From a virus: a stretch of 18,135 nt of DNA. Under the pieces are notes generated by a model. It worked only from the letters and a program-made list of their open reading frames with translations, did not search any database and had not been told where the DNA came from. Both the position numbers and the translations under genes were made by a program. The stretch lies in UHGV virus genome UHGV-0175528. One strand, given 5' to 3'. Below are positions 37 through 17,707 of this stretch, piece after piece (the first letter of the stretch is position 1; every line of letters begins with the position of its first letter).

Positions 37-972
37 TTATCTGTGGCGATTCAGAAAGATAAATTCTCGATTTCCACTTAACGGCTTCATCATCTCTAGT
101 ATCGCAATTGCTTCATCTGACAATGGAACAGTATGGTCGCGGTTCATTTTCATGCGTGCTGCAGGAATCTTCCACTCTCGCGCTTCTATGTCTACCTCTT
201 CCCAGAGAGCTTCAGCCGCTTCGGCAGGGCGGGTAATAGTAAGAAGTTGCCACATGAACAGGCAGCGTGTGGAAAGGCTAATGCTGGCTGTTCGCATCGT
301 CTGCATTAACTGAGGTAGCTGATCCGGTCGAATGCTGGGCATGTTCTTTTTCTGAGGCTTCTCGAAGGCTTTACCGATATTAACGCTGGGAACAGCATCA
401 ATCAGCCCTGTGTTCTGGGCATAGATCATGACCTCATTAATACGTTGGCACAGGCGACGAACAGTTTCCAGTGCTCCTCTGGCCTGAACCGGTTGTACGG
501 CCTGAACCAGTGTATGAGCTTTAATATCTGTAACGCTAACGTCGCCAATCGCAGGAAAGACGTCTCTTTCAAGAGAGCGCCAGATATCTTCCGCATAGTC
601 CTCTGTCACACTGGCTTTCTTCACATTCCACCAACGTTCAGCTACGAGTTGGAAAGTGTTGGTTTTGGCTTCCAGCGAACTGCGCAATTGTTCTTGCTGA
701 TGTTCCTGCGGATCGATCTGTTTAGCCAGTAGTGAGCGGGACTCTGCACGGTAGTTTCTGGCATCGGCAAGGGTAACTGACGGGTAGGAGCCTATGCTCT
801 TCTTTGCTCGTTTCTTGGTGACAGGGCGAATGTAGCGAAACTGCCAGATTTTACTCCCGCTGGATTTAATGAGTAGCTCAAGGCCATCGCCATCATAGAG
901 AACGTAGTCCGCCTCCTTGGGTTTGGCTGATTCTATTTCTTTAACGGATAGAGGTTTGGTTTGTCTTGCCAT
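37..972 (-). CDS. intA: P4-type (CP4-57 IntA-like) tyrosine integrase, N-terminal 311 aa only; ends after ...REFIFLNRHR, so the C-terminal catalytic region (HxxR and Tyr) is missing; probable pseudogene or remnant
   Basis: N-terminus MARQTKPLSVKEIESAKPKEADYVLYDGDGLELLIKSSGSKIWQFRY is typical of P4-family integrases. The conserved WxEVDxxxxEWxIPAxRMKxxRxHxVPLS block is present, but the ORF stops about 100 aa short at 37-39 (TAA). ATG at 970-972. Confidence 0.7.
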   Translation of the reverse strand: MARQTKPLSVKEIESAKPKEADYVLYDGDGLELLIKSSGSKIWQFRYIRPVTKKRAKKSIGSYPSVTLADARNYRAESRSLLAKQIDPQEHQQEQLRSSLEAKTNTFQLVAERWWNVKKASVTEDYAEDIWRSLERDVFPAIGDVSVTDIKAHTLVQAVQPVQARGALETVRRLCQRINEVMIYAQNTGLIDAVPSVNIGKAFEKPQKKNMPSIRPDQLPQLMQTMRTASISLSTRCLFMWQLLTITRPAEAAEALWEEVDIEAREWKIPAARMKMNRDHTVPLSDEAIAILEMMKPLSGNREFIFLNRHR

Positions 973-1204: not shown

Positions 1205-1366
1205 TGATCGGGATTTACATAATGTGTTGAATATGAACGATTTATTTTTTCATGCAAGACATTATGTGCATTTTACGTACATATCGTTGTCCCAGTAACG
1301 TCCTGATTCTGTCCAATATTTTGAAACATGTGTAGAATGTGGATTTTCGATTTTTGTAGAGAATTT

Positions 1367-2281
1367 CGGATGAAGGTTCTTGTTCCACCTCCTGAAATTT
1401 GTATTTATTCTGATAAGTACCGACTAGACACATTGAAATTTCTTAACGACATTGACACGATGGGGGTGACGGATGGTTGTAAGCTTGAGATTGATTTATC
1501 TAACGTTCGTTTTGCTTCAGCTGCGGCATCGCTACTATTTTTCGCAATAGTTAATCGGGCAAATCTGCTTACAGGTGATCCTAACTTGATACGTTTCAAA
1601 TGGCCGAAAAAAAACGACAATCCAAATGGGCATAAGTGGTTAGTTAGCACCGGGCTCTCTAAAGCTCTCCTGGCTGGAACCCCAGAGAAATTAGAAAATC
1701 TTATTAAAGATGGGCGTTTTTTTCAGTCTGCTACCGAACCATTTTCGCATTTATTGGACACAGTTAGTGTATTACAGTCGAAGGCAGCGTTAAATCAGCA
1801 TCAGTTAAATCTGCTCATGACAGCTGTTGGTGAGGCACTTTTGAATGTTTCGCATCATGCATACGAACATGAGATGTTTTCACAAGATTTAATTCTGCTC
1901 CAGGGGAAGCGTTGGTGGCAGTGTGCGTGGTTTGATCCTGCGCAAAATGAGGTTGTTTTTATCGTTTGTGATCTGGGGTTGGGGATTTTTCGATCGTTTA
2001 GTCCCGAGGCTGATGGTGTTAGTATAGAAAAACAAGTATCTTCAGTAGCAAGAGCTATGCTTGTTGGGCAGAGCCGTTTTGTAGGGGACGGGCGAGGGAA
2101 TGGCTCGGAAGACATAAAGAGGCCTATCGGTGTTGGGTGTGAGGATAAAGAAACACTCTTAATTCTGACCGGCAATGTACGATATAGCTATAATTCTTTC
2201 GACGAAGAACCTCGCTGTGAGAAACTTGCAGAGTATATTCCAGGTACATTGCTTCAGTGGTCCCTTACTCCAAGGAGATGA
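1367..2281 (+). CDS. GHKL-family ATPase / putative serine-protein kinase (SpoIIAB/RsbW anti-sigma-factor-like fold) with an N-terminal STAS-like segment
   Basis: N-box GEALLNVSHHAY, G1 box VCDLGLGIF, G2 box GDGRGNG and G3-like PGTLLQW sit in the C-terminal half in the order seen in SpoIIAB. N-terminal KLEIDLSNVRFASAAASLLF resembles the downstream STAS-like protein. Start is uncertain (ATG at 1328, 1337 or 1367), with no strong SD. Confidence 0.6.
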   Translation, partial: RMKVLVPPPEICIYSDKYRLDTLKFLNDIDTMGVTDGCKLEIDLSNVRFASAAASLLFFAIVNRANLLTGDPNLIRFKWPKKNDNPNGHKWLVSTGLSKALLAGTPEKLENLIKDGRFFQSATEPFSHLLDTVSVLQSKAALNQHQLNLLMTAVGEALLNVSHHAYEHEMFSQDLILLQGKRWWQCAWFDPAQNEVVFIVCDLGLGIFRSFSPEADGVSIEKQVSSVARAMLVGQSRFVGDGRGNGSEDIKRPIGVGCEDKETLLILTGNVRYSYNSFDEEPRCEKLAEYIPGTLLQWSLTPRR

Positions 2282-2285
2282 AAAC

Positions 2286-2609
2286 ATGGTTATAGTCATA
2301 GCTAAGCAATTTTCTAAAACGCCGTTTGGTCGATACACGTCGGACGGTCCTGACAGTGCTGAAAGATTCAGAAGAGATTTTTTGGTTCCAGCCTTTAAAT
2401 CGAGTGGCGAAAAAATTGTTGTGGATTTCAGGGGGATTGCTTTAGGTGTGGGGTCTTCTTTCTTGGAGGAAGCCTTCGGTGGGTTAGTGCGTAAAGAGGG
2501 GATTGCCAAATCTGAAGTTAAAACACGCTTAGAAATCGAAAGTGATATGCCATTTTATCAAGAACAGATATCTAAGTTTGTTGATCAAGCAAAACCTGAG
2601 TTGGCATAA
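2286..2609 (+). CDS. Small STAS-like protein (DUF4325-like; anti-sigma-antagonist-like), 107 aa
   Basis: AAGGAG SD 8 nt upstream of ATG 2286, 4 nt after the upstream stop. Motif KIVVDFRGIALGVGSSFLEEAFGGL resembles the STAS DxSG phospho-acceptor region. Confidence 0.6.
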   Translation: MVIVIAKQFSKTPFGRYTSDGPDSAERFRRDFLVPAFKSSGEKIVVDFRGIALGVGSSFLEEAFGGLVRKEGIAKSEVKTRLEIESDMPFYQEQISKFVDQAKPELA

Positions 2610-2622
2610 GGATTTTTGAAGA

Positions 2623-3192
2623 ATGGCGCAATATGCATGGATGTTTAGTGTCACAAGCATTGCTTTAGTGTTTGTCGGATGGTGGGTAACGTATTGTAAC
2701 GCTATGCGAATAGCTACACGTTCAGAGTCAAAGTCTATAGTTGATTCATTGACGAAACTTGTGAGTGAGCTTGCTGATATTTCGATAGATTATTGGCTTA
2801 AAAAAGTATCTCACATAACACCTCCTCCTGAATCATTACAGGGTTCAGTTGTTCCTGTTGAGGCTGCTGAGTATCTCACTGTGCTTTTGGCGAAGGCAAG
2901 CCAGGCAGGGCATTATTTTAAGTTACTGAATATTCGAGGTATTGAAGCTGATGCAAGTAAGCTATCTGCAGTGTTAGAAAAAACAAGCCTTGACTGTGAG
3001 ATCGCTTATTGTCAATCAGCTTCAGAACGCTGTGTGAGGGCTAATGAAATTATGTCTGTTTGCATGGAGGTGATAGAAGATATTCACTCTAATTTTCAAG
3101 CAGCATACCCTCCATCAAAACATATTTCACCTATTGCATGGTATAAAAGTAAAGTCAAAGAAATTGAAGAATGGCACGCTAGTATGTATTAG
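2623..3192 (+). CDS. Hypothetical membrane-anchored protein (one N-terminal TM helix, about 150-aa soluble domain), 189 aa
   Basis: ORF follows the STAS-like gene by 13 nt. N-terminal AWMFSVTSIALVFVGWWVTYC is hydrophobic. AT-rich like its two neighbours; no recognisable catalytic motif. Confidence 0.5.
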   Translation: MAQYAWMFSVTSIALVFVGWWVTYCNAMRIATRSESKSIVDSLTKLVSELADISIDYWLKKVSHITPPPESLQGSVVPVEAAEYLTVLLAKASQAGHYFKLLNIRGIEADASKLSAVLEKTSLDCEIAYCQSASERCVRANEIMSVCMEVIEDIHSNFQAAYPPSKHISPIAWYKSKVKEIEEWHASMY

Positions 3193-4360
3193 AGTTGTAT
3201 GTCTTTACTGATTTCCCATCGTATTCAGCCAAATACGAACCGTAATGTCGAAAAAGCATTTCCGGTCCTTTATGCCCCATCTGACCAGCAAGCCAGAACA
3301 GGTTAACGCCCTGGCTAATGTGCCGAGTGGCGAACGTGTGGCGTGTCTGGTACGGATTGCGATAGCGTACACCAGCTTTTTTAAGGGTTGGCACCCAGGC
3401 TTTTTTTCGGATCGCGTCCGCATTTGCCCAAGGGGCGCGAGTTTTTGGATCGCTGAATATAAAGTCGCTTTTTAGCGCCGTGTAGGGCTTTTGTGCCTGA
3501 AGAGCCGCCAGCGCTTCGCTGTTCAGTTGCACTTTGCGGGTGCCGGCTTTTGTTTTGGTGCTTTTGATTACCCCGACTACGCTTGCAATCTGAACATGCG
3601 CGGTGTTGCCGATAAAGTCTATATCCGTCCAGCGCAACGCGCACAATTCTGAGCTGCGCAGTCCGGTATTAAAGGCAAAGCGAAACAGATTTCGCCATTC
3701 CGGGTAATGACAGGCGCCATAGATTGCTGCCGTCTCCGCTGGTGTAAAAGGATCGACCTCGTAATCATCACTGCCTGGTGTGTTGTCCAATACGTGATAC
3801 CGGCTGGCGCTGACTAGCGTGACAGGATTTATTGTTAACAAACCATCGGTCACCGCCTCATCTATGGCGCTGCGCAGGAATGAAAGATTATTGCGGATAG
3901 TTTTCAGTTTTGTTTTTCTGCTGGCGATCCAGTTTTTTAGTACTGCAGGTGTCAGTTCTGATACATGAAATTTATGCAATGCTGACAGCGCCGACAGGCA
4001 TTTTTCATAACCTCTAATTGTCGATGGTGACAGGTTACGGTTCTGGCAGATATTCAGGTATTCATCCAGGTAAGATTTTATATTTTTGTTTTTTTTCACT
4101 CCCCCGAATAGCTCCAGCTTTTGGGAGTTGGGGAAGTATTTTGCATACTCGAAGGTACCACTGATAATCTGATTTTTTATTTCTCCCAGCAGGCGCTCGG
4201 CATACTTCACACTGCGCGCGTTTACTTCCATTCTGGAGAGGGGCTCCCGACACAGAACCCCTTTATATGTAAAAGTGATAACCAGGGTGCTACCAGTTTT
4301 ATGCTGGCGAATAGTTACTCCTCTAGGGAGAGATAATGATCCTTGTTCTTTCTTGCCCAT
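3179..4360 (-). CDS. int: Tyrosine recombinase / phage integrase (lambdoid prophage Int), full length
   Basis: C-terminal catalytic region has RHTFATRH (HxxR region) and LFRHYGSY (Tyr). GGAGG SD 7 nt upstream of ATG 4358-4360; the track start at 4387 is a TTG. Confidence 0.9.
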   Translation of the reverse strand: MGKKEQGSLSLPRGVTIRQHKTGSTLVITFTYKGVLCREPLSRMEVNARSVKYAERLLGEIKNQIISGTFEYAKYFPNSQKLELFGGVKKNKNIKSYLDEYLNICQNRNLSPSTIRGYEKCLSALSALHKFHVSELTPAVLKNWIASRKTKLKTIRNNLSFLRSAIDEAVTDGLLTINPVTLVSASRYHVLDNTPGSDDYEVDPFTPAETAAIYGACHYPEWRNLFRFAFNTGLRSSELCALRWTDIDFIGNTAHVQIASVVGVIKSTKTKAGTRKVQLNSEALAALQAQKPYTALKSDFIFSDPKTRAPWANADAIRKKAWVPTLKKAGVRYRNPYQTRHTFATRHISQGVNLFWLAGQMGHKGPEMLFRHYGSYLAEYDGKSVKTYNSNTY

Positions 4361-4524
4361 TTTGTAACCTCCATTAAGTCGACCCAACGTTCTTTAACTC
4401 CGTCGACTTTTAATACATGTACCCCTTCTTTCCATATTCCTCTTTGTATCCGTTTGTTAACGGCATCAACCGTTTCTCCTGCGTTGCGGCAGTAGGTTGA
4501 TATAGGTACGCAATCCAGCCCCAC
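4315..4524 (-). CDS. xis: Putative excisionase (Xis-like small DNA-binding protein), overlapping the int 5' end
   Basis: 69-aa basic protein directly upstream of int, overlapping it by 46 nt as in lambda xis/int. Loose resemblance to excisionases (ISTYCRNAGETVDAVNKRIQRG). GTG start with a close SD. Confidence 0.5.
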   Translation of the reverse strand: MGLDCVPISTYCRNAGETVDAVNKRIQRGIWKEGVHVLKVDGVKERWVDLMEVTKWARKNKDHYLSLEE

Positions 4525-4532
4525 AGTTCACC

Positions 4533-4679
4533 TCATACAACACTCAGCCCACGGCAGTGGCACCACACTTCAAACATTCGCCTCACAACTTCACGACAGT
4601 AGAAGCCGTCAACGTCTCGCGTCAGGTCATAGCGATTGCCGTAACGCTGGCGTACCCATAGCTCAAATGCTTTATTCAT
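4533..4679 (-). CDS. Hypothetical small protein (48 aa), below the ORF-track length cutoff
   Basis: ATG 4677-4679 preceded by AGGAAA; MNKAFELWVRQRYGNRYDLTRDVDGFYCREVVRRMFEVWCHCRGLSVV. Fits the gap between the upstream gene and xis. Confidence 0.3.
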   Translation of the reverse strand: MNKAFELWVRQRYGNRYDLTRDVDGFYCREVVRRMFEVWCHCRGLSVV

Positions 4680-4682
4680 TCT

Positions 4683-4925
4683 CTATTTCCTTTTCATGGC
4701 TCGTAATTTTTTCAGATGAGCTTCCTGCTCTGTTTCTGCCAGAATTTGTCGGTATTCCTGGTGATCTATCCGTTCAAACGATTCATTAAAATCGCTTATT
4801 TTTACAGATTGTGTTCGCCCATCCATTCTTCTGTACAACACAGTGTTGTTTATGCAGCGAATAATTTTTATCGGGTAACCGGCACTGTCGGTATACAGTT
4901 GCCCTTGATTAATCAAAGCGAACAT
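4683..4925 (-). CDS. Hypothetical prophage protein (80 aa)
   Basis: Internal ATG at 4923-4925 has an AGGAG SD 5 nt upstream; the longer track ORF (to 5048) would overlap the upstream gene by 90 nt. Confidence 0.5.
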   Translation of the reverse strand: MFALINQGQLYTDSAGYPIKIIRCINNTVLYRRMDGRTQSVKISDFNESFERIDHQEYRQILAETEQEAHLKKLRAMKRK

Positions 4926-4956
4926 TTTTTCTCCTGCTCTCTGAATAGTGAGAACT

Positions 4957-5328
4957 TCAGAGCCGTATGTTTGTAGCGGGTTCAATACTGATAATTTCTG
5001 CTGAGATAAGCATCCCGGCAAGCCAGAGTTCTCTGGACAGGTCTTCATCCTGGCATATCAGTTCGCCAATATTAATGGTGGCCATGATATCTGTTTCCCC
5101 TGTGCGCTCATCCTCGACTTCTTCATAAGGCAGCGTTGCGTACAGGCTTTCAATAGCGCAACTGATAACATCCAGTCCGGTCAGATTGCCGCCGACAGTA
5201 ACTTCGAATGTTTCGCGGTATTCCCATAGTCCGAAAGTTAATCGAACGGTTTGTTTTGCCATGCGTCCGCATGACGTCAGATTCGGGTCATAGTTCATTA
5301 TTTGCGGTTGAGTATTCTGGGTGTTCAT
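4957..5328 (-). CDS. Hypothetical prophage protein (about 123 aa)
   Basis: ORF in the leftward operon; start chosen at the MNTQ ATG (5326-5328), which has a GGAA-type SD; acidic C-terminal half. Confidence 0.5.
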   Translation of the reverse strand: MNTQNTQPQIMNYDPNLTSCGRMAKQTVRLTFGLWEYRETFEVTVGGNLTGLDVISCAIESLYATLPYEEVEDERTGETDIMATINIGELICQDEDLSRELWLAGMLISAEIISIEPATNIRL

Positions 5329-5368
5329 CTGCATTTCCCTTAGCCCGGCGGCCTGCCGGGCATATAAG

Positions 5369-6196
5369 TTATTTAACCTGGATAAATGGTGTATTTGCAC
5401 CGCTGGTCATGTATTGCGGCAGTGTGCCGTTCCATTTATTGATGGCTTCCAACTCCATAACACCGGGGTTCTGGCGCAGAGCTTCACCGCGTAAACGAAT
5501 AGCATCGGCTTCGGCCTGGGCTTTTGTGCGAATCGCATCAGCCTGTCCGGCAGCTTCCGCGCGCAACATGTTGGCTTCCGCTTCGCACTGTTTAACTTCC
5601 TGCTCGCGCTGCAGTGTTTTCTGGTTCGCCGTGACTTTGGCATTAATGCTGTCGATAACGGTTGACGGGTACTCCGGCTTACCCACATATGAGAGGCTCA
5701 TTACCTGAATACCGATGGGTGTCATTTCCTCCTGGATGTCTTTAAGAGCTGCATCCAGTAGTTCAGACTTCCCGCCGTCGATAAATTTGTCGGTGGTCAT
5801 TTTGCTGGCCAGTCTATTGAGTGCGTCGGCGATCTTTTGACGTAGGTCGGTGTCGGTAATGTCATCCACGCCTTTGCGGTAGGTCTGAAACACCGTGGTA
5901 ACTTTGGATGGGTCAACTTTGTAGGCCACGCCGATGTGATAGCCGATGGTTGTACCGTCACTCATCTGGAAACTGAACGGTTCATCGTAGGTCTTCATTT
6001 GTTTGAAGGTCGGGAAGATGTAAACTTCAGTATTCCAGCCGGTCCAGTAGCGGCCAACGCCAACCACTTCACCGACGCCTTTGTCGTCGCCCAGTTTATT
6101 TACCTTGATGCCAACATTACCTGGTTCAACGCGATCGCAACCGACAAGGCCAATGGTCGGAAGAACAATGGCTAAAGCAAAAATAACTTTTTTCAT
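5369..6196 (-). CDS. SPFH/band-7 (prohibitin/HflKC-like) domain lipoprotein
   Basis: N-terminus MKKVIFALAIVLPTIGLVGC has a lipobox (LVGC). Central SPFH-like region and an Ala/Glu-rich coiled-coil C-terminus (AEAAGQADAIRTKAQAEADAIRLRGEALRQNP). Confidence 0.85.
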   Translation of the reverse strand: MKKVIFALAIVLPTIGLVGCDRVEPGNVGIKVNKLGDDKGVGEVVGVGRYWTGWNTEVYIFPTFKQMKTYDEPFSFQMSDGTTIGYHIGVAYKVDPSKVTTVFQTYRKGVDDITDTDLRQKIADALNRLASKMTTDKFIDGGKSELLDAALKDIQEEMTPIGIQVMSLSYVGKPEYPSTVIDSINAKVTANQKTLQREQEVKQCEAEANMLRAEAAGQADAIRTKAQAEADAIRLRGEALRQNPGVMELEAINKWNGTLPQYMTSGANTPFIQVK

Positions 6197-6381
6197 CTTT
6201 TACCCTTAGTGAAAGAAAGACCCTTGTAAATGGCATAAATGCAGGGCGGGGTCAGAAACGCCAGTGCAAAGCCGGAAATGACTGCTACCGTATCCTTCAT
6301 GGATATAAGGAACGGGACGAGTAGTCCGTAAATGCATGCGATAATTGCCAGTAAAATTACTATTCTGAAATACAATCTCAT
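6193..6381 (-). CDS. Small membrane protein (62 aa, two predicted TM helices) translationally coupled to the SPFH gene
   Basis: Its stop overlaps the SPFH start (ATGA-type overlap at 6193-6196). MRLYFRIVILLAIIACIYGLLVPFLISMKDTVAVISGFALAFLTPPCIYAIY is hydrophobic. Confidence 0.55.
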   Translation of the reverse strand: MRLYFRIVILLAIIACIYGLLVPFLISMKDTVAVISGFALAFLTPPCIYAIYKGLSFTKGKR

Positions 6382-6404
6382 TGGTTTGTTGCATCCCGAT
6401 ATTT

Positions 6405-6512
6405 TTAACTGACTGACAGCGCAATAAAGAGAATAATGATTTCTGTTAGTGTCAGTACTGTGGCAAGGATTAAAAGCAGTTTTACTCTGCTTAATTCACG
6501 ATTGCTTTTCAT
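6405..6512 (-). CDS. Candidate tiny hydrophobic peptide (35 aa), not in the ORF track
   Basis: ATG 6510-6512; MKSNRELSRVKLLLILATVLTLTEIIILFIALSVS has one TM-like helix; sits immediately upstream of the small membrane/SPFH pair. Confidence 0.3.
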   Translation of the reverse strand: MKSNRELSRVKLLLILATVLTLTEIIILFIALSVS

Positions 6513-6557
6513 ATAAACGGTTAGTAAAAAACGGAAGAATTATATTCTTCTTAATAT

Positions 6558-7139
6558 TTAATGTGTCACTGGCGCTTCTGGCATACCATGAGTATTCAGA
6601 TCGTGAATCATTTCATCCAGAAGGAGTTCAAGCCCTTCGCGCCCCATAGCAGAGACAATGAAACCATTATTAGGATCTGCGATGAGCATTTTTTGATAGA
6701 GAAACAGAACTCGCCCCATGCCTTCAGCTTCACCATATTTTTCAATAAATCCCCATTCGACATGGTTTTGCAGGGCAATGCGAAGTGGTCCTGGGTATAT
6801 ACTCATGCAACCATGCTTCCCCTTATAAATAACTGCGCGATCTGTAGTTCCGTTATCGTTAGGGATATCAATGGTGCCGTTCTTGTCTTCCACTTCACTG
6901 ATAAATTTCGCTACATATAGCCAGCGCCACTGGGCAACCTTCATATCGACTGAAAATTTGCCCAGCAGTCCGGCATCATCAGCTTCTGCAATACATTGCA
7001 TGATTCTTAACCCATGCCAGTATGGATTATCGTATTCACCATCATTAAGCCGCTGTACGGCCTCAACATAATCAATGGTTGTATTGCCAATTTTTATGCC
7101 ATGTGGCGTAACTTCTGGTCGGAACTCTGAATGATTCAT
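6558..7139 (-). CDS. Hypothetical protein (193 aa), no recognised domain
   Basis: Start taken at the MNHSEFRP ATG (7137-7139), which overlaps the upstream gene's stop (ATGA-type coupling). Confidence 0.55.
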   Translation of the reverse strand: MNHSEFRPEVTPHGIKIGNTTIDYVEAVQRLNDGEYDNPYWHGLRIMQCIAEADDAGLLGKFSVDMKVAQWRWLYVAKFISEVEDKNGTIDIPNDNGTTDRAVIYKGKHGCMSIYPGPLRIALQNHVEWGFIEKYGEAEGMGRVLFLYQKMLIADPNNGFIVSAMGREGLELLLDEMIHDLNTHGMPEAPVTH

Positions 7140-7324
7140 AATGTTTGCTCCTTTGCTGGTGGAATAATCGTGTAGCCAGCTCTTTTTGCCATCCACAGAA
7201 ATGTATCCATGCAGCCAACGAATTCATTATCCAACAGATGTTTTGAGTAAATTACTTCACCATTTTCAATGGTTAGCAACACTCTTACTTTTTTATGTGT
7301 TATGTTCTGTTGTTTTTCTTTCAT
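7136..7324 (-). CDS. Hypothetical small protein (62 aa), coupled to the downstream 193-aa gene
   Basis: GGGAGA SD 7 nt upstream of ATG 7322-7324; stop overlaps the next start. Confidence 0.5.
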   Translation of the reverse strand: MKEKQQNITHKKVRVLLTIENGEVIYSKHLLDNEFVGCMDTFLWMAKRAGYTIIPPAKEQTL

Positions 7325-7522
7325 TTATTTATCTCCCATATGCTTTGCGCAAATACAGGTTGGCTATATGAAGATAAGAATCTCCATGTTGTGCAATGAG
7401 GCAGGCAGTTTTATACGATGCCTTATTTTTCAGGAAAGTCATAACTGAGTTCCCTCTATGAATAAAGGTTGTAACAATCCCCGGCGATAAAACCGTAATA
7501 AACGTTCAGAGCATGTTTGTTG

Positions 7523-7888
7523 TTATTGCGCTAGTTCTTTTTCGGCAGCAGCTTTTGCATATTCACATGCAAAATTCAGAATTTCGCTACCGAGTGTTTT
7601 TATTTCGTTATTACTGGACATATGTAATACCTGTGTTGCATGCAATAAATGATAAACATTTACCGCAAATGAGTCCGGCTCCAGACAAATGCCTTCATAA
7701 TCATCTTGCTGTGAGGTTGTTTCTGTCATTGCTCCTGAAGTGCATGCGAGCCTGTTTTTGACAATTCTCTTTCCTCTAATCACTATATCGGCTACATCTA
7801 TTGCCTTTACAACCTCCGGGAGAAATTCCTGGTTTGTATAATCAAAGTTATCAACATGGAGAACAGTTATGTTTTCGAACTTTTTCAT
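7523..7888 (-). CDS. Hypothetical prophage protein (121 aa)
   Basis: Complete ORF in the leftward operon; no recognised motif. Confidence 0.5.
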   Translation of the reverse strand: MKKFENITVLHVDNFDYTNQEFLPEVVKAIDVADIVIRGKRIVKNRLACTSGAMTETTSQQDDYEGICLEPDSFAVNVYHLLHATQVLHMSSNNEIKTLGSEILNFACEYAKAAAEKELAQ

Positions 7889-9072: not shown

Positions 9073-9762
9073 CTAACCAAATCTGTTTATATTGAATGGT
9101 ACTGATGAGATCACTTTAGACTGGATATAAAGCAGAGCTAACCCCTCTTTTTCGATGCTCCATGGTTGATAATTGGGGTTATCAGATAACACCATGATTT
9201 TGCTTCCAATTTTCTGAAGTCTTTTCACGTAGCATTCTCCATCAAAACAAAATGCATAAATGCCATCGCCATCAAAATAAGTTACTGTCTTATCAAGAAA
9301 AAGAAGGTCGCCAGGTGAGATTGTGGGAGCCATACTGTCTCCTCTGGCGTTACCTATTTCTATATTTTTGAATGCCCGATTTCCAACAAGGCGTCGGGCA
9401 TATTCAGGATCAAGTTCTATTGAGCGCACTACATCTATCAAGTCACCACGTACATGAGTTCCATCACCGCAACTAAACTCAACATCAAGGACATTAAACA
9501 CGACGCTATCTGTTCTTGTCTGGTGTTTCTCTTGCGAGGAAAAGGTTGGTGAGGAGTCTTCACCTAAGAACCAGGATTGTGGATAACCGCTAATCTCTGA
9601 TAAATGCGCGAGCTTATCACTCCGTGGAAATGTTTTTCCTGTTGTCCAGTACTGCACTGATTGCGCACTCACACCTAACTTGCGGGCCAGTTGAGCCTGA
9701 GTCCATCCTTTGGCTTTCAGCATTGCGGCTATTCGATTTTCCGTGTTTTTGACGTTCTTCAT
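9073..9762 (-). CDS. cI: CI-like phage repressor (N-terminal HTH, C-terminal S24 LexA-type autopeptidase)
   Basis: HTH region WTQAQLARKLGVSAQSVQYW; S24 nucleophile motif GDSMAPTISPGDLLFLDK and Lys in CYVKRL. ATG at 9760-9762 has an AGGA SD; the track start at 9768 is a TTG. Confidence 0.9.
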   Translation of the reverse strand: MKNVKNTENRIAAMLKAKGWTQAQLARKLGVSAQSVQYWTTGKTFPRSDKLAHLSEISGYPQSWFLGEDSSPTFSSQEKHQTRTDSVVFNVLDVEFSCGDGTHVRGDLIDVVRSIELDPEYARRLVGNRAFKNIEIGNARGDSMAPTISPGDLLFLDKTVTYFDGDGIYAFCFDGECYVKRLQKIGSKIMVLSDNPNYQPWSIEKEGLALLYIQSKVISSVPFNINRFG

Positions 9763-9895
9763 GACCAAATCCTGTGGGTTTCTTTACAAGGATAAATCTT
9801 TATTTGATTTTAGTGTATTCGATCCTTTTGCAACTTGCATGTTAATTTAAACTTGATGTATTCTTGATTCATAAAGTTAATATTGGTGCTTTGTT
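9763..9895. promoter_or_regulatory. Divergent cI/cro control region (OR-like operators with pRM/pR-type promoters)
   Basis: 133-bp AT-rich spacer between divergent repressor and Cro-like genes. Repeated CTTGAT / ATCAAG-type half-sites (AACTTGATG, TTCTTGATTCAT, GCAACTTGCATG) are shared with the pL region. Confidence 0.6.
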
Positions 9896-16609: not shown

Positions 16610-17707
16610 TTAGAACTGGTAAACCATACCAACAGCAACAATATCGTCGGTGTTTATACCAAGACCTCTGGTGAAATCATTTTTGTCAAGCAGGTTGATT
16701 TTGTAATCAACGAAAGTAGACATATTTTTGTTGAAGTAATAGGTTGCGCCTACATCAACATATTTAACTAAGTCTTGATCGCCCCATACTCCGAGATCCT
16801 TACCTTTAGATTGCAGGTAAGCAACGGACGGACGCAGCCCAAAATCGAACTGATATTGTGCAACAGCCTCAACGTTCTGAGCTTTATTGGCGACGAAGCG
16901 ATCAGCAAATACCGTCATATTCTGGGTTTCAGAATAGGTAGTGGCTAGGTAAATGTTGTTAGCGTCATATTTCAGACCAGCGGCCCAAACTTCTGCATTT
17001 TTACCGGAAGCAAATACTCCAGGAAGAACTTTCCCTAGATTAACCTGAGTGTCGGTACGGTCAGATTTCGCATAAGTTGCACCAATACCGAATCCTTCGT
17101 ATTCATAGGTAGCAGAGAAACCAAAGCCATCACCATTACCTTTGGTGTAGTTATCGAAACCGCTACGATCGTTTTTGCCTTGGTACTGGGCGGCAAAGTT
17201 CAGGCCATCAACCAGACCAAAGAAGTCGTTGTTACGGTAAGTTGCAACACCAGTAGCACGTTGGGTCATGAATACATCTGTTTGAGTCCAGGTATCGCCA
17301 CCGAATTCCGGCAGAACATCGGTCCATGCGCCGATATCGTATGCTACACCGTAGTTACGACCATAATCGATGGAGCCGTAGTCACCGAATTTCAGGCCAG
17401 CGAACGCAAGGCGAGTTTTATCCCCGGAAGAACCTTGAGATTCAGCACGGTTGCCTTTGAATTCATATTCCCACTGACCGAAACCAGTCAGTTGATCGTT
17501 GATTTGGGTTTCGCCTTTGAAGCCCAGACGAGCATAAGTTTTGTCACCATCGTGTTTATCGTTAGAGGAGAAGTAGTGCTCGGCATTAACTTTTCCGTAC
17601 AGATCCAGTTTGTTGCTGTCTTTGTTATAAATCTCTGCTGCCTGAGCAGACATCGCCATTAATACTGACGCAGCTACAGCAGAGATTGCCACTGTTAATT
17701 TTTTCAT
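16610..17707 (-). CDS. nmpC: Outer-membrane general porin of the OmpC/OmpF/PhoE family (NmpC/Lc-like), apparently intact; lysogenic-conversion gene
   Basis: Signal peptide [23 protein letters not shown] then [17 protein letters not shown]...; C-terminal ...VGMVYQF with terminal Phe; 365 aa; AAGGA SD before the ATG. Confidence 0.9.

What the first reader, a model, noticed from the sequence alone, without database searches (positions are those of the whole stretch)
5369..6512. SPFH/band-7 lipoprotein operon with two small hydrophobic proteins in the early-left region
A lipobox-bearing SPFH protein is translationally coupled to a 62-aa two-TM protein and preceded by a possible 35-aa single-TM peptide. 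SPFH scaffolds normally pair with NfeD-type membrane partners; here the partners are unusually small, and the operon is phage cargo in the region lambda uses for accessory genes. It could act as a membrane-level exclusion or abortive-infection module, or modulate host proteases.
Basis: partly seen in the sequence, partly recalled or inferred. Interest (0 to 1): 0.5.

Follow-up and report, generated by a model that had tools for sequence, protein, structure and literature searches.

The report
Phage SPFH lipoprotein with hairpin partner
This prophage carries a two-gene membrane module, a lipid-anchored SPFH (HflK/C-like) scaffold protein and a tiny two-helix partner, that recurs in many unrelated phages, including strictly lytic ones, so it probably acts during phage growth rather than as a host-defence cargo; its function is untested.

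Summary
Window 5369-6196(-) encodes a 275-aa SPFH/Band_7 protein with a lipobox (LVGC, Asp at +2). Its start overlaps by 4 bp (ATGA) the stop of a 62-aa two-helix membrane protein (6193-6381, PHROG 1130).

The pair is a conserved module. It sits in phiP27-like, P2-like, P1-like and SSU5-like elements and in Enterobacter/Klebsiella prophages. It also sits in virulent N4-like, rV5-like, Agrobacterium, Roseobacter, Stenotrophomonas, Burkholderia, Pseudomonas and crAss-like phages.

The partner family has an almost invariant periplasmic-turn motif, G-x3-P-x-L-(I/V)-S-x-x-D-T...V-x-x-G, and no NfeD domain. The 35-aa ORF (6405-6512) travels only with phiP27-like backbones and is not part of the module.

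I found no sigma-70-like promoter on the gene strand and no PADLOC hit. The module lies inside repressor-controlled early operons. The nearest relatives by sequence and fold are HflK/C, prohibitin and erlin, all extracytoplasmic cages tied to membrane proteolysis.

Best reading, by inference only: an inner-membrane-anchored periplasmic SPFH cage plus hairpin partner that acts in the infected cell, perhaps on FtsH-type proteolysis. Superinfection exclusion is the main rival. The window's copy is an ordinary member of a widespread family whose pairing I did not find described.

The parts
5369..6196 (-). SPFH/Band_7 lipoprotein gene, 275 aa (stop codon 5369-5371).
   Evidence: Pfam PF01145 E 6.7e-30; PHROG 200 E 6e-113. 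95-98% identical to phiP27 L05. The AF2 model has an SPFH core plus a long helix at 178-242. Foldseek top hits are erlin1/2, HflK/C and prohibitin, E 5e-11 to 1e-9.
6134..6196 (-). Signal peptide (residues 1-19), lipobox L-V-G-C with Cys20 (6137-6139), and Asp21 at +2 (6134-6136).
   Evidence: Read from the translation. G-C-D-R-V-E-P-G is invariant in the four-phage alignment A1, and Cys20 is nearly invariant (>=90%) across the 28 homologues of A3. Asp at +2 is the classical Lol-avoidance (inner-membrane retention) signal in E. coli; this is established knowledge and was not tested here.
6193..6381 (-). Partner gene: 62-aa two-helix (hairpin) inner-membrane protein.
   Evidence: PHROG 1130 E 1.5e-23. 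36 close homologues in Enterobacteriaceae. 95 clusters at 50% identity, nearly all 55-90 aa, in 1.84 billion representatives. AF2 helices at 2-26 and 31-59. Found directly upstream of SPFH in almost all loci examined.
6193..6196 (-). ATGA overlap of the partner stop and the SPFH start (translational coupling).
   Evidence: The same -4 overlap occurs in 72 of the 79 pairs the script detected, and in P88, MY01, Pseudomonas phage 5400 and OLIVR5.
6289..6315 (-). Conserved periplasmic-turn motif of the partner, P23-F-L-I-S-M-K-D-T31.
   Evidence: In the alignment of family representatives, P is 100%, L 84%, I/V 94%, S 99%, and the downstream V 89% and G 99% conserved. The motif is recognisable from E. 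coli to Agrobacterium, Roseobacter and Pseudomonas phages.
6405..6512 (-). 35-aa single-TM ORF. A neighbour, not part of the conserved module; coding status uncertain.
   Evidence: Intact and always 35 aa wherever it is present, but absent from many loci that carry the pair. No SD, no family hit, not annotated by PGAP.
5343..5361 (-). GC-rich 7-bp stem-loop (GCCCGGC-AGGCC-GCCGGGC) between the SPFH stop and the DUF5406 gene start (ATG at 5332-5334). No T-run follows.
   Evidence: Read from the sequence. The terminator scan did not report it on this strand. Function unknown.
6526..6550 (-). Weak AT-rich hairpin (GAAGAAT-ATA-ATTCTTC, -4.9 kcal/mol) followed by CGTTTTTT, between the phrog_1515 gene and the 35-aa ORF.
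   Evidence: RNA fold. It is below the threshold of the terminator scan. At most a leaky terminator.

Best explanation
The locus is a self-contained, widely conserved two-gene phage module.

The SPFH protein is exported, lipid-modified at Cys20 and, because of Asp at +2, most likely retained on the periplasmic face of the inner membrane. That is the same orientation as HflK/C. Like its nearest relatives HflK/C, prohibitin and erlin, it probably assembles through its long C-terminal helix into a ring or cage that fences off a patch of inner membrane.

The 62-aa partner is made in step with it through the ATGA overlap. It is an N-in/C-in helical hairpin, and its nearly invariant periplasmic turn (P-x-L-I/V-S-x-x-D-T) is the likely contact with the membrane-proximal part of the SPFH protein. 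It would supply the transmembrane element that the lipoprotein lacks.

The pair is transcribed as part of the repressor-controlled early operon, so it works in the infected or induced cell, as it must in the many virulent phages that carry it.

Most likely job, by analogy only: to enclose or modulate an inner-membrane client, with FtsH-type membrane proteolysis as the precedent, and so shield phage or selected host membrane and regulatory proteins during development.

Shown here: domain identity, lipobox, gene coupling, conservation of the pair, distribution, fold class. Inferred: inner-membrane location, cage formation, partner contact, time of expression, and the client.
For: - Identity and anatomy.
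- The pair is conserved across unrelated backbones: P88, RCS47, CMS-2020a; 94 of 96 loci; Enterobacter/Klebsiella prophages in the same early-left slot; a P2-like prophage and a phage-plasmid in E. coli.
- The pair also occurs in virulent phages: MY01, Fifi011, PVP-SE1, Pseudomonas 5400, OLIVR5, DSS3P8, BUCTxx99, RY5, cr85_1.
- The SPFH family is in 731 of 50,697 phage records, including many virulent groups (for example 238 Staphylococcus records), and in 716 of 5,426 complete E. coli genomes, about half of the places on plasmids.
- The partner family is tightly defined, with an invariant turn motif.
- Partner alleles only 20-26% identical pair with SPFH alleles 92-93% identical. Any interface must therefore rest on the few conserved residues.
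- The DSS3P8 orthologue is TM-anchored with no Cys yet has the same partner, which supports an inner-membrane location for the family.
- A natural in-frame partner-SPFH fusion, P0038, has a topology consistent with an N-in/C-in partner.
- No promoter-like site on the gene strand; the genes are chained in early operons.
- Nearest solved relatives by sequence are HflK, prohibitin-2 and HflC. By fold they are erlin, HflK/C and prohibitin, ahead of stomatin and flotillin. HflK/C has the same periplasmic orientation and cages FtsH (PMC12005517).
Against: - No experiment on this family was found in the literature searched.
- Similarity to HflK/C is weak: E about 1e-3, and NCBIfam scores of 25 bits against cutoffs of 134-159.
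- There is one SPFH gene, not a K/C pair, and the protein lacks the HflK C-terminal extension that contacts FtsH.
- The AF2 model is of moderate quality: pLDDT 66, with residues 17-63 below 50.
- Homologues in other taxa have other +2 residues (E, Y, S, A), so inner-membrane retention is inferred only for the C-D subfamily.
- The promoter scan is crude and cannot exclude expression in the lysogen.
- Some SPFH-bearing phages lack the partner (PMBT37, EFDG1, HRTV-19).
Confidence: 0.4

Rival explanations
1. Superinfection exclusion. The periplasm-facing lipoprotein cage and its hairpin partner, made early after infection or induction, block genome entry of a second phage at the inner membrane. 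This would be functionally like T4 Imm/Sp or lipoprotein Sie proteins (my own knowledge).
For: Envelope location and early-operon position. Useful to virulent and temperate phages alike, which fits the distribution. The partner diverges much faster than the SPFH scaffold (20-35% against 79-93% identity), as expected of a specificity element in an arms race.
Against: No similarity to any known exclusion or defence protein. No known Sie protein is an SPFH protein, as far as my literature searches reach. The most conserved part of the partner is the turn motif, not a variable surface. A cage-forming scaffold is an elaborate way to block an entry channel.
Confidence: 0.25
2. General membrane organiser or stabiliser for the infected cell. 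The cage maintains inner-membrane integrity or proton-motive force, or scaffolds phage membrane proteins (holin/antiholin, secretion of lytic enzymes) and so tunes lysis timing.
For: This is the generic role ascribed to SPFH scaffolds. In Kayvirus the distant homologue MbpS sits with membrane protein MbpV between lysK and tgl, and a role in exporting the lytic enzyme Tgl was suggested (PMC7150955). The family is very widely distributed, including in jumbo, crAss-like and archaeal viruses.
Against: In the window and most other loci the pair is not next to lysis genes. The Kayvirus partner is a different one-TM protein. The idea is unspecific and no data exist.
Confidence: 0.15
3. One reading: a lysogen-protecting abortive-infection or defence module carried as prophage cargo (a moron).
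For: It sits in the accessory early-left region next to xis/int. It recurs in variable regions of P2-like and P1-like elements. It is mobile among backbones.
Against: No PADLOC hit. No promoter-like site on its strand and no terminator framing it. It is chained to neighbouring early genes. It is present in many obligately virulent phages, where a lysogen-protecting Abi makes no sense.
Confidence: 0.08
4. A lysogenic-conversion surface or vesicle lipoprotein acting on the animal host, as claimed for the prophage-encoded HflK/C-like protein PM0222 of Pasteurella multocida.
For: PM0222 is reported as prophage-borne, released in outer-membrane vesicles, TLR1/2-activating, and attenuating when its gene is deleted (PMC9872710). 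The window's family is common in STEC Stx phages.
Against: Whether PM0222 belongs to this family was not tested. TLR2 activation is generic for lipoproteins. Asp at +2 argues for inner-membrane retention. The hypothesis does not explain the conserved inner-membrane partner or the presence in virulent environmental phages.
Confidence: 0.05

Closest known systems
HflK/HflC, the FtsH-modulating SPFH cage of E. coli
   Same: N-terminally membrane-anchored. The SPFH domains and coiled coil are in the periplasm. It is the nearest solved relative by sequence (HflK E 3e-4 to 7e-4) and among the top fold matches over the full length. It has a historical link to the lambda lysis-lysogeny decision through CII (PMC12005517).
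   Different: The phage system has one SPFH gene instead of a K/C heteropair, and a lipid anchor instead of a TM helix. The protein is 275 aa, without the HflK C-terminal extension that contacts FtsH. It fails the HflK/HflC equivalog cutoffs by more than 100 bits. It has a dedicated 62-aa hairpin partner that HflK/C lacks. FtsH binding is untested.
SPFH-NfeD operons (QmcA-YbbJ, YqiK-YqiJ, archaeal stomatin-STOPP)
   Same: An SPFH gene immediately preceded by a co-directional, coupled membrane-protein gene.
   Different: The partner has no NfeD/OB-fold domain and no protease domain: no Pfam hit, 62 aa, two helices only. The SPFH domain faces the periplasm, whereas QmcA and YqiK face the cytoplasm (established knowledge). 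The partner family (PHROG 1130) has its own motif.
Prohibitin PHB1/2 and erlin1/2 complexes
   Same: Top structural matches and sequence matches to the coiled-coil and C-terminal part. Both are extracytoplasmic-facing cages linked to membrane-protein degradation (m-AAA protease; ERAD; established knowledge).
   Different: Both are eukaryotic, TM-anchored and heteromeric. Identity is only 15-18%.
Kayvirus MbpV-MbpS
   Same: A phage-encoded SPFH protein directly preceded by a small membrane protein, with abutting genes (PMC7150955).
   Different: Only 25% identity to the window protein. MbpS is TM-anchored. MbpV is a 102-aa single-TM protein with a charged tail and lacks the P-x-L-I-S motif. It sits beside lysis genes.
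Phage superinfection-exclusion envelope proteins (T4 Imm/Sp; lipoproteins Llp, Cor, Ltp)
   Same: Small early-expressed phage proteins of the inner membrane or periplasm, some of them lipoproteins. This is a possible functional analogy (my own knowledge).
   Different: No sequence or fold relationship. None is an SPFH protein, and none was detected by PADLOC or PHROG annotation.

Membership tests
SPFH / Band 7 superfamily (PF01145) | Band_7 domain scoring above Pfam's gathering threshold | tested here: met
   104.9 bits against 23.6, E 6.7e-30, residues 22-208
SPFH / Band 7 superfamily (PF01145) | Full-length architecture of cage formers: SPFH core, a long coiled-coil helix and a short C-terminal segment | tested here: met
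   AF2 gives helix 178-242 after the alpha/beta core. Foldseek aligns 245-300 columns to erlin, HflK/C, prohibitin, stomatin and flotillin chains, E 5e-11 to 1e-6. The model is only moderate (pLDDT 66).
SPFH / Band 7 superfamily (PF01145) | Assembly into a large ring or cage on a membrane | not testable with these tools
   Only monomer prediction is available.
Bacterial lipoprotein | Signal peptide ending in a lipobox [LVI][ASTVI][GAS]C | tested here: met
   MKKVIFALAIVLPTIGLVG-C20. The Cys is invariant in the four-phage alignment A1 and nearly invariant (>=90%) in the 28 sequences of A3. Asp at +2 suggests inner-membrane retention; this was not tested.
HflK / HflC (FtsH modulators) | Score above the NCBIfam equivalog cutoffs (TIGR01933, TIGR01932) | tested here: not met
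   24.6 bits against 159.4, and 25.3 against 134.4
HflK / HflC (FtsH modulators) | Two paralogous SPFH subunits encoded together | tested here: not met
   A single SPFH gene in the window and in all related loci
HflK / HflC (FtsH modulators) | Periplasmic orientation of the SPFH domain | tested here: met
   The cleavable lipoprotein signal places the domain outside the cytoplasm. HflK/C topology is from PMC12005517.
HflK / HflC (FtsH modulators) | Physical association with FtsH (HflK C-terminal extension inside the cage) | not testable with these tools
   The protein ends at residue 275, and the matches cover HflK only to about residue 306 of 419. Binding itself cannot be assessed.
SPFH-NfeD operon | Partner carries an NfeD (PF01957) C-terminal OB-fold domain | tested here: not met
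   No Pfam hit at E<=0.1 other than a sub-threshold DUF6320 match. 62 aa, two helices.
SPFH-NfeD operon | Adjacent co-directional membrane-protein gene coupled to the SPFH gene | tested here: met
   ATGA overlap, conserved in 72 of the 79 pairs the script detected and in distant phages
PHROG 200 (lipoprotein) + PHROG 1130 (membrane protein) | Significant profile match over the full length | tested here: met
   E 6.2e-113 (residues 1-274) and E 1.5e-23 (residues 1-61)
Known anti-phage defence systems (PADLOC-DB v2) | Match to any defence-system protein model | tested here: not met
   No hit at E<=0.1 for the three ORFs or five neighbouring genes
Moron (independently expressed prophage cargo) | Own promoter upstream and terminator downstream | tested here: inconclusive
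   No sigma-70-like site and no scanner-grade terminator on the minus strand in 4500-7600. There is only a weak hairpin upstream and a GC hairpin without a T-run downstream. The scan is crude.

The most novel reading that the evidence does not exclude
The hairpin protein and the lipid-anchored SPFH protein form a previously undescribed, ancient two-component phage organelle. This would be a phage-built periplasmic cage on the host inner membrane, shared by virulent and temperate phages of Proteobacteria and probably Bacteroidota. It would capture a host inner-membrane machine, such as FtsH or a DNA-entry or defence sensor complex, as a general host-takeover or counter-defence step. It would also define a new, NfeD-independent class of SPFH partner.
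Probability: 0.25. Interest if true: 0.75.

Novelty: new variant of a known kind. Interest (0 to 1): 0.45.

Why it matters
SPFH proteins are among the most widespread 'unknown-function' accessory genes of phages. Here the family is in 731 of 50,697 phage records and in 13% of complete E. coli genomes. Published genome papers only speculate about them.

Three results make the problem testable. The Gram-negative phage version comes with a dedicated, sharply defined hairpin partner. It faces the periplasm like HflK/C. It is shared by lytic and temperate phages.

The testable question is whether the pair forms a cage, and around what. If the client is FtsH, phages would carry their own version of the host factor that first defined the hfl (high frequency of lysogenisation) phenotype. 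If the pair blocks entry or counters membrane-based defences, it would be a new class of exclusion or anti-defence device. For the SPFH field it would add a minimal, lipid-anchored, homomeric model with a new partner type.

Tried and rejected
- PADLOC scan of the three ORFs and five neighbours: nothing.
- NCBIfam: only sub-threshold HflK/HflC/FloT hits.
- Eight literature searches (SPFH with prophage, lipoprotein, phage defense, anti-phage, superinfection exclusion, phage-encoded; band 7 with Abi; HflC with phage genome). They returned only annotation-level mentions or speculation. The 'phage defense' hits were reference-list artefacts.
- The HflK/C structure paper PMC8807802 is not held.
- Promoter and terminator scan: nothing on the gene strand.
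- My first script scored 15 loci as lacking a partner. A tblastn check showed 12 were threshold artefacts and one (L094) has no upstream sequence; only the two IS1-disrupted loci are true absences.
- The idea that the 35-aa ORF is a third subunit was rejected on distribution.
- NfeD identity of the partner was rejected.
- The viral-contig scan returned only near-identical loci and added little diversity. Diversity came from tblastn against GenBank phages.
- The Clew-1 SPFH looked lipobox-less, but the annotated start is too short. The upstream in-frame sequence has ...ITAGC-SK. Its upstream ORF is a one-TM protein of uncertain relation.
Full report
**1. What is in the sequence**

On the minus strand the window has three consecutive ORFs: 6405-6512 (35 aa), 6193-6381 (62 aa) and 5369-6196 (275 aa).

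The 275-aa product is an SPFH/Band_7 protein. Pfam PF01145 gives E 6.7e-30, 104.9 bits against a cutoff of 23.6. PHROG 200 'lipoprotein' gives E 6e-113. Its N-terminus MKKVIFALAIVLPTIGLVG-C-D is a lipoprotein signal with a canonical lipobox and Asp at +2.

The 62-aa product matches PHROG 1130 'membrane protein' (E 1.5e-23) and no Pfam family. Its charge pattern is basic at both ends with a short neutral turn, ISMKDT. Together with an AF2 model showing helices 2-26 and 31-59, this indicates an N-in/C-in helical hairpin. Its stop overlaps the SPFH start (ATGA, 6193-6196).

The 35-aa ORF is a basic N-terminus plus one hydrophobic helix. It has no Shine-Dalgarno sequence and no family match.

**2. 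Context**

The window is the early region of a lambdoid prophage about 95% identical to the left arm of Stx2e phage phiP27, where the SPFH gene is L05 and the 62-aa gene is not annotated. It is 99.4% identical over the locus to a prophage of E. coli strain WAT, where PGAP calls the 62-aa gene but not the 35-aa ORF.

The order on the minus strand is: CI/LexA-like repressor (9073-9768), HTH protein, several small genes, phrog_1515 gene (6558-7196), 35-aa ORF, partner, SPFH, DUF5406, DUF4222, xis-like gene, integrase at 3179-4387. The pair is therefore distal in the leftward early operon.

A consensus scan found no sigma-70-like promoter and no scanner-grade terminator on the minus strand between 4500 and 7600. 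By eye and by folding there is only a weak AT-rich hairpin plus T-run upstream of the 35-aa ORF (-4.9 kcal/mol), and a GC-rich hairpin without a T-run after the SPFH stop.

**3. Is the pairing real?**

Yes, and it is the main result.

The SPFH gene alone, roughly its mature-protein core, matches at 86-91% nucleotide identity in P2-like phage P88, P1-like phage-plasmids (RCS47 and others) and, at 75%, in CMS-2020a-type phage-plasmids. In each of these unrelated backbones a small two-TM ORF lies directly upstream:
- P88 gp11: 67 aa, 4-bp overlap.
- RCS47: an unannotated 78-aa ORF overlapping by 20 nt, in the slot between upl and a tRNA gene/ban.
- CMS-2020a: 66 aa, 3-nt gap.

These partners are only 20-35% identical to the window's, while their SPFH proteins are 79-93% identical.

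Across 96 fetched loci (GTDB genomes and IMG/VR contigs), a script plus a tblastn check found the partner in all but two. In those two (Shigella flexneri, E. coli ECMA0423) an IS1 end abuts the SPFH start. One further locus (L094) starts at the SPFH gene, so it has no upstream sequence to examine. The intergenic distance was -4 in 72 loci, +3 in 6 and -20 in 1.

In Enterobacter, Klebsiella and related prophages the pair occupies the same early-left slot upstream of xis/int and is chained to the preceding gene. In E. coli the SPFH gene is present in 716 of 5,426 complete genomes, with about half of the places on plasmids. Two sampled contexts were a P2-like prophage and a phage-plasmid, and both had the partner.

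**4. Beyond temperate coliphages**

tblastn of the SPFH protein against 50,697 GenBank phage records hit 731 records, 654 over at least 80% of its length. Many of the groups hit are virulent: Kayvirus, Bruynoghevirus-like Pseudomonas phages, N4-like Erwinia/Klebsiella phages, rV5-like Seunavirus, phiCbK-like, crAss-like, Lak and haloviruses.

I inspected 15 diverse hits. A partner with the same architecture and turn motif is directly upstream in:
- Klebsiella MY01 (N4-like; 61 aa, -4 overlap)
- Erwinia Fifi011
- Pseudomonas phage 5400 (-4)
- Agrobacterium OLIVR5 (-4)
- Roseobacter DSS3P8 (+3; here the SPFH protein is TM-anchored, without a Cys)
- Stenotrophomonas BUCTxx99
- Burkholderia RY5 (an unannotated 49-aa ORF)
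- crAss-like cr85_1 (more divergent)
- Salmonella PVP-SE1, where it sits one gene further upstream

A 31%-identical SPFH on a phage-like metagenomic contig (L015) also has it.

phiCbK has a larger multi-TM protein in that position, Kayvirus a different one-TM protein (MbpV), and Clew-1 a one-TM ORF of uncertain relation. PMBT37, Enterococcus EFDG1 and Halorubrum HRTV-19 have none.

A profile of the partner searched against 1.84 billion cluster representatives found 95 clusters at E <= 1e-3, almost all 55-90 aa. Their alignment gives the consensus M-K-x-Y ... (Y/F)-G-x3-P-x-L-(I/V)-S-x-x-(D/S/N)-(T/D/S)-x-A-V-x-x-G ... P ... basic tail. P is 100%, S 99% and the second G 99% conserved.

So the partner is a real, sharply defined small-protein family whose most conserved part is the periplasmic turn.

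**5. The 35-aa ORF**

It is intact and always 35 aa in the phiP27-like loci that carry it: 11 peptide variants with conservative substitutions, and variable sites at codon positions 3/1/2 of 9/8/3. It may therefore be a genuine small membrane peptide.

However, at least 24 loci with another partner allele have a 130-aa soluble protein upstream instead, and no other backbone has it. It belongs to the phiP27-type neighbourhood, not to the module.

**6. What kind of SPFH protein?**

- NCBIfam gives only sub-threshold HflC/HflK hits.
- Against PDB sequences the best matches are HflK, prohibitin-2, HflC, prohibitin and erlins, all weak (E 3e-4 to 0.7). Stomatin and flotillin do not appear.
- The AF2 model is of moderate quality (pLDDT 66; the SPFH2 core and the 178-242 helix score 70-90, residues 17-63 score below 50).
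- Foldseek aligns the model over its full length to the cage-forming complexes. Erlin1/2, HflK/C and prohibitin are the top matches (E 5e-11 to 1e-9), with stomatin, flotillin and major vault protein lower in the list.

The three nearest groups all put the SPFH domain on the non-cytoplasmic side and are linked to membrane-protein degradation. HflK/C is a 24-subunit cage around four FtsH hexamers (PMC12005517). Prohibitin with m-AAA proteases and erlin with ERAD are from established knowledge.

The phage protein is nevertheless not an HflK or HflC orthologue. It fails the equivalog cutoffs, is encoded singly, is lipid-anchored rather than TM-anchored, and lacks the HflK C-terminal extension that touches FtsH.

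**7. Mechanistic reading**

Shown:
- An exported, lipobox-bearing SPFH protein.
- A translationally coupled hairpin partner with an invariant periplasmic turn.
- A module that moves as a unit between phage backbones and is kept in lytic and temperate phages.

Inferred:
- Inner-membrane retention, from Asp +2 in the enterobacterial subfamily, the TM-anchored orthologue with the same partner in DSS3P8, and the fact that the partner's periplasmic loop is only about six residues, so contact must be at the inner-membrane surface.
- Ring or cage assembly.
- A partner-SPFH complex. A natural in-frame fusion, P0038, is topologically compatible with this, but it may be a frameshift artefact.
- Expression with early lytic genes.

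I commit, with modest confidence, to a phage-built periplasmic SPFH cage that fences or modulates an inner-membrane client in the infected cell, with FtsH-type proteolysis as the precedent. Superinfection exclusion at the inner membrane is the strongest rival. The fast divergence of the partner relative to the scaffold would fit a specificity element.

**8. Literature**

Within the held library I found no functional study of this family.
- Genome papers note phage SPFH genes and speculate on lysogeny control (PMC4936722, PMC10269572), adsorption or DNA entry (PMC13239085), or help with secretion of a lytic enzyme (PMC7150955).
- A prophage-borne 'HflK/C-like' lipoprotein of Pasteurella multocida was reported as a vesicle-associated TLR1/2 agonist and virulence factor (PMC9872710). 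Whether it belongs to this family was not tested.
- I found no description of the conserved hairpin partner.

**9. Verdict**

The window's copy is an ordinary member of a very common phage gene pair. The pair itself is a new variant of the SPFH-plus-partner theme, with unknown function and good experimental tractability. I rate interest as moderate (0.45).

Noticed in passing
window 37-972 (-) and 1328-3192 (+): Left of the prophage integrase there is a second, apparently truncated tyrosine integrase (311 aa; the catalytic-domain match stops at profile position 101 of 172). Next to it are three plus-strand ORFs (1328-2281, with a weak HATPase_c_2 match at E 2.6e-5; 2175-2609; 2623-3192) of unknown function. 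These look like cargo between two integrases. In strain WAT the equivalent position holds a restriction-modification system, so this is a variable, possibly defence-related slot.
   Followed up: partly
window 16610-17707 (-): A full-length Gram-negative porin gene (PF00267, E 1e-154) lies just beyond the Q-antiterminator-like gene at the right end of the window, on the opposite strand. It is either a phage-borne porin or the flanking host gene.
   Followed up: no
P0038 (from; 94-kb contig, P1-like partner allele): A 347-aa protein (cluster of 8 member sequences) is an in-frame fusion of the RCS47-type hairpin partner with the SPFH lipoprotein, through their 20-nt overlap. The result is hairpin, then signal peptide, then lipobox. 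It is either a Rosetta-stone-like natural fusion or a frameshift or sequencing artefact.
   Followed up: partly
L005 and L006, about 3400-4000 (Shigella flexneri SFBU1023, E. coli ECMA0423): From the sequence, an IS1 end appears to abut the SPFH start codon and to replace the partner gene. This leaves an orphan SPFH gene and is a natural partner knock-out.
   Followed up: partly
L003 2864-5093 (phage-plasmid RCS47): In this P1-like element the pair sits between upl/plp and a tRNA gene/ban. From memory of the P1 map, that is the position occupied in P1 by tciA-tciC; I did not check it here. It would mean one membrane-stress-type cassette swapped for another.
   Followed up: no
window 5343-5361 (-): A perfect 7-bp GC-rich stem-loop lies directly after the SPFH stop codon and 8 nt before the Shine-Dalgarno/ATG of the DUF5406 gene. 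There is no T-run, so it is not a canonical terminator. It could be a transcript-stabilising or processing element.
   Followed up: no
L101 1441-1545 (Pseudomonas phage Clew-1) and L105 1352-1501 (Burkholderia phage RY5): These look like annotation errors in public records. The Clew-1 SPFH gene is annotated too short and loses its signal peptide and lipobox (...ITAGC-SK). RY5 lacks an annotation for the 49-aa partner ORF. The phiP27 RefSeq record likewise omits the 62-aa gene.
   Followed up: yes
L098 1-244 (Erwinia phage Fifi011): A gene annotated as 'CLP protease' lies two genes upstream of the partner-SPFH pair in this virulent phage. This recalls the stomatin-NfeD/STOPP protease association. 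I did not check whether it recurs.
   Followed up: no
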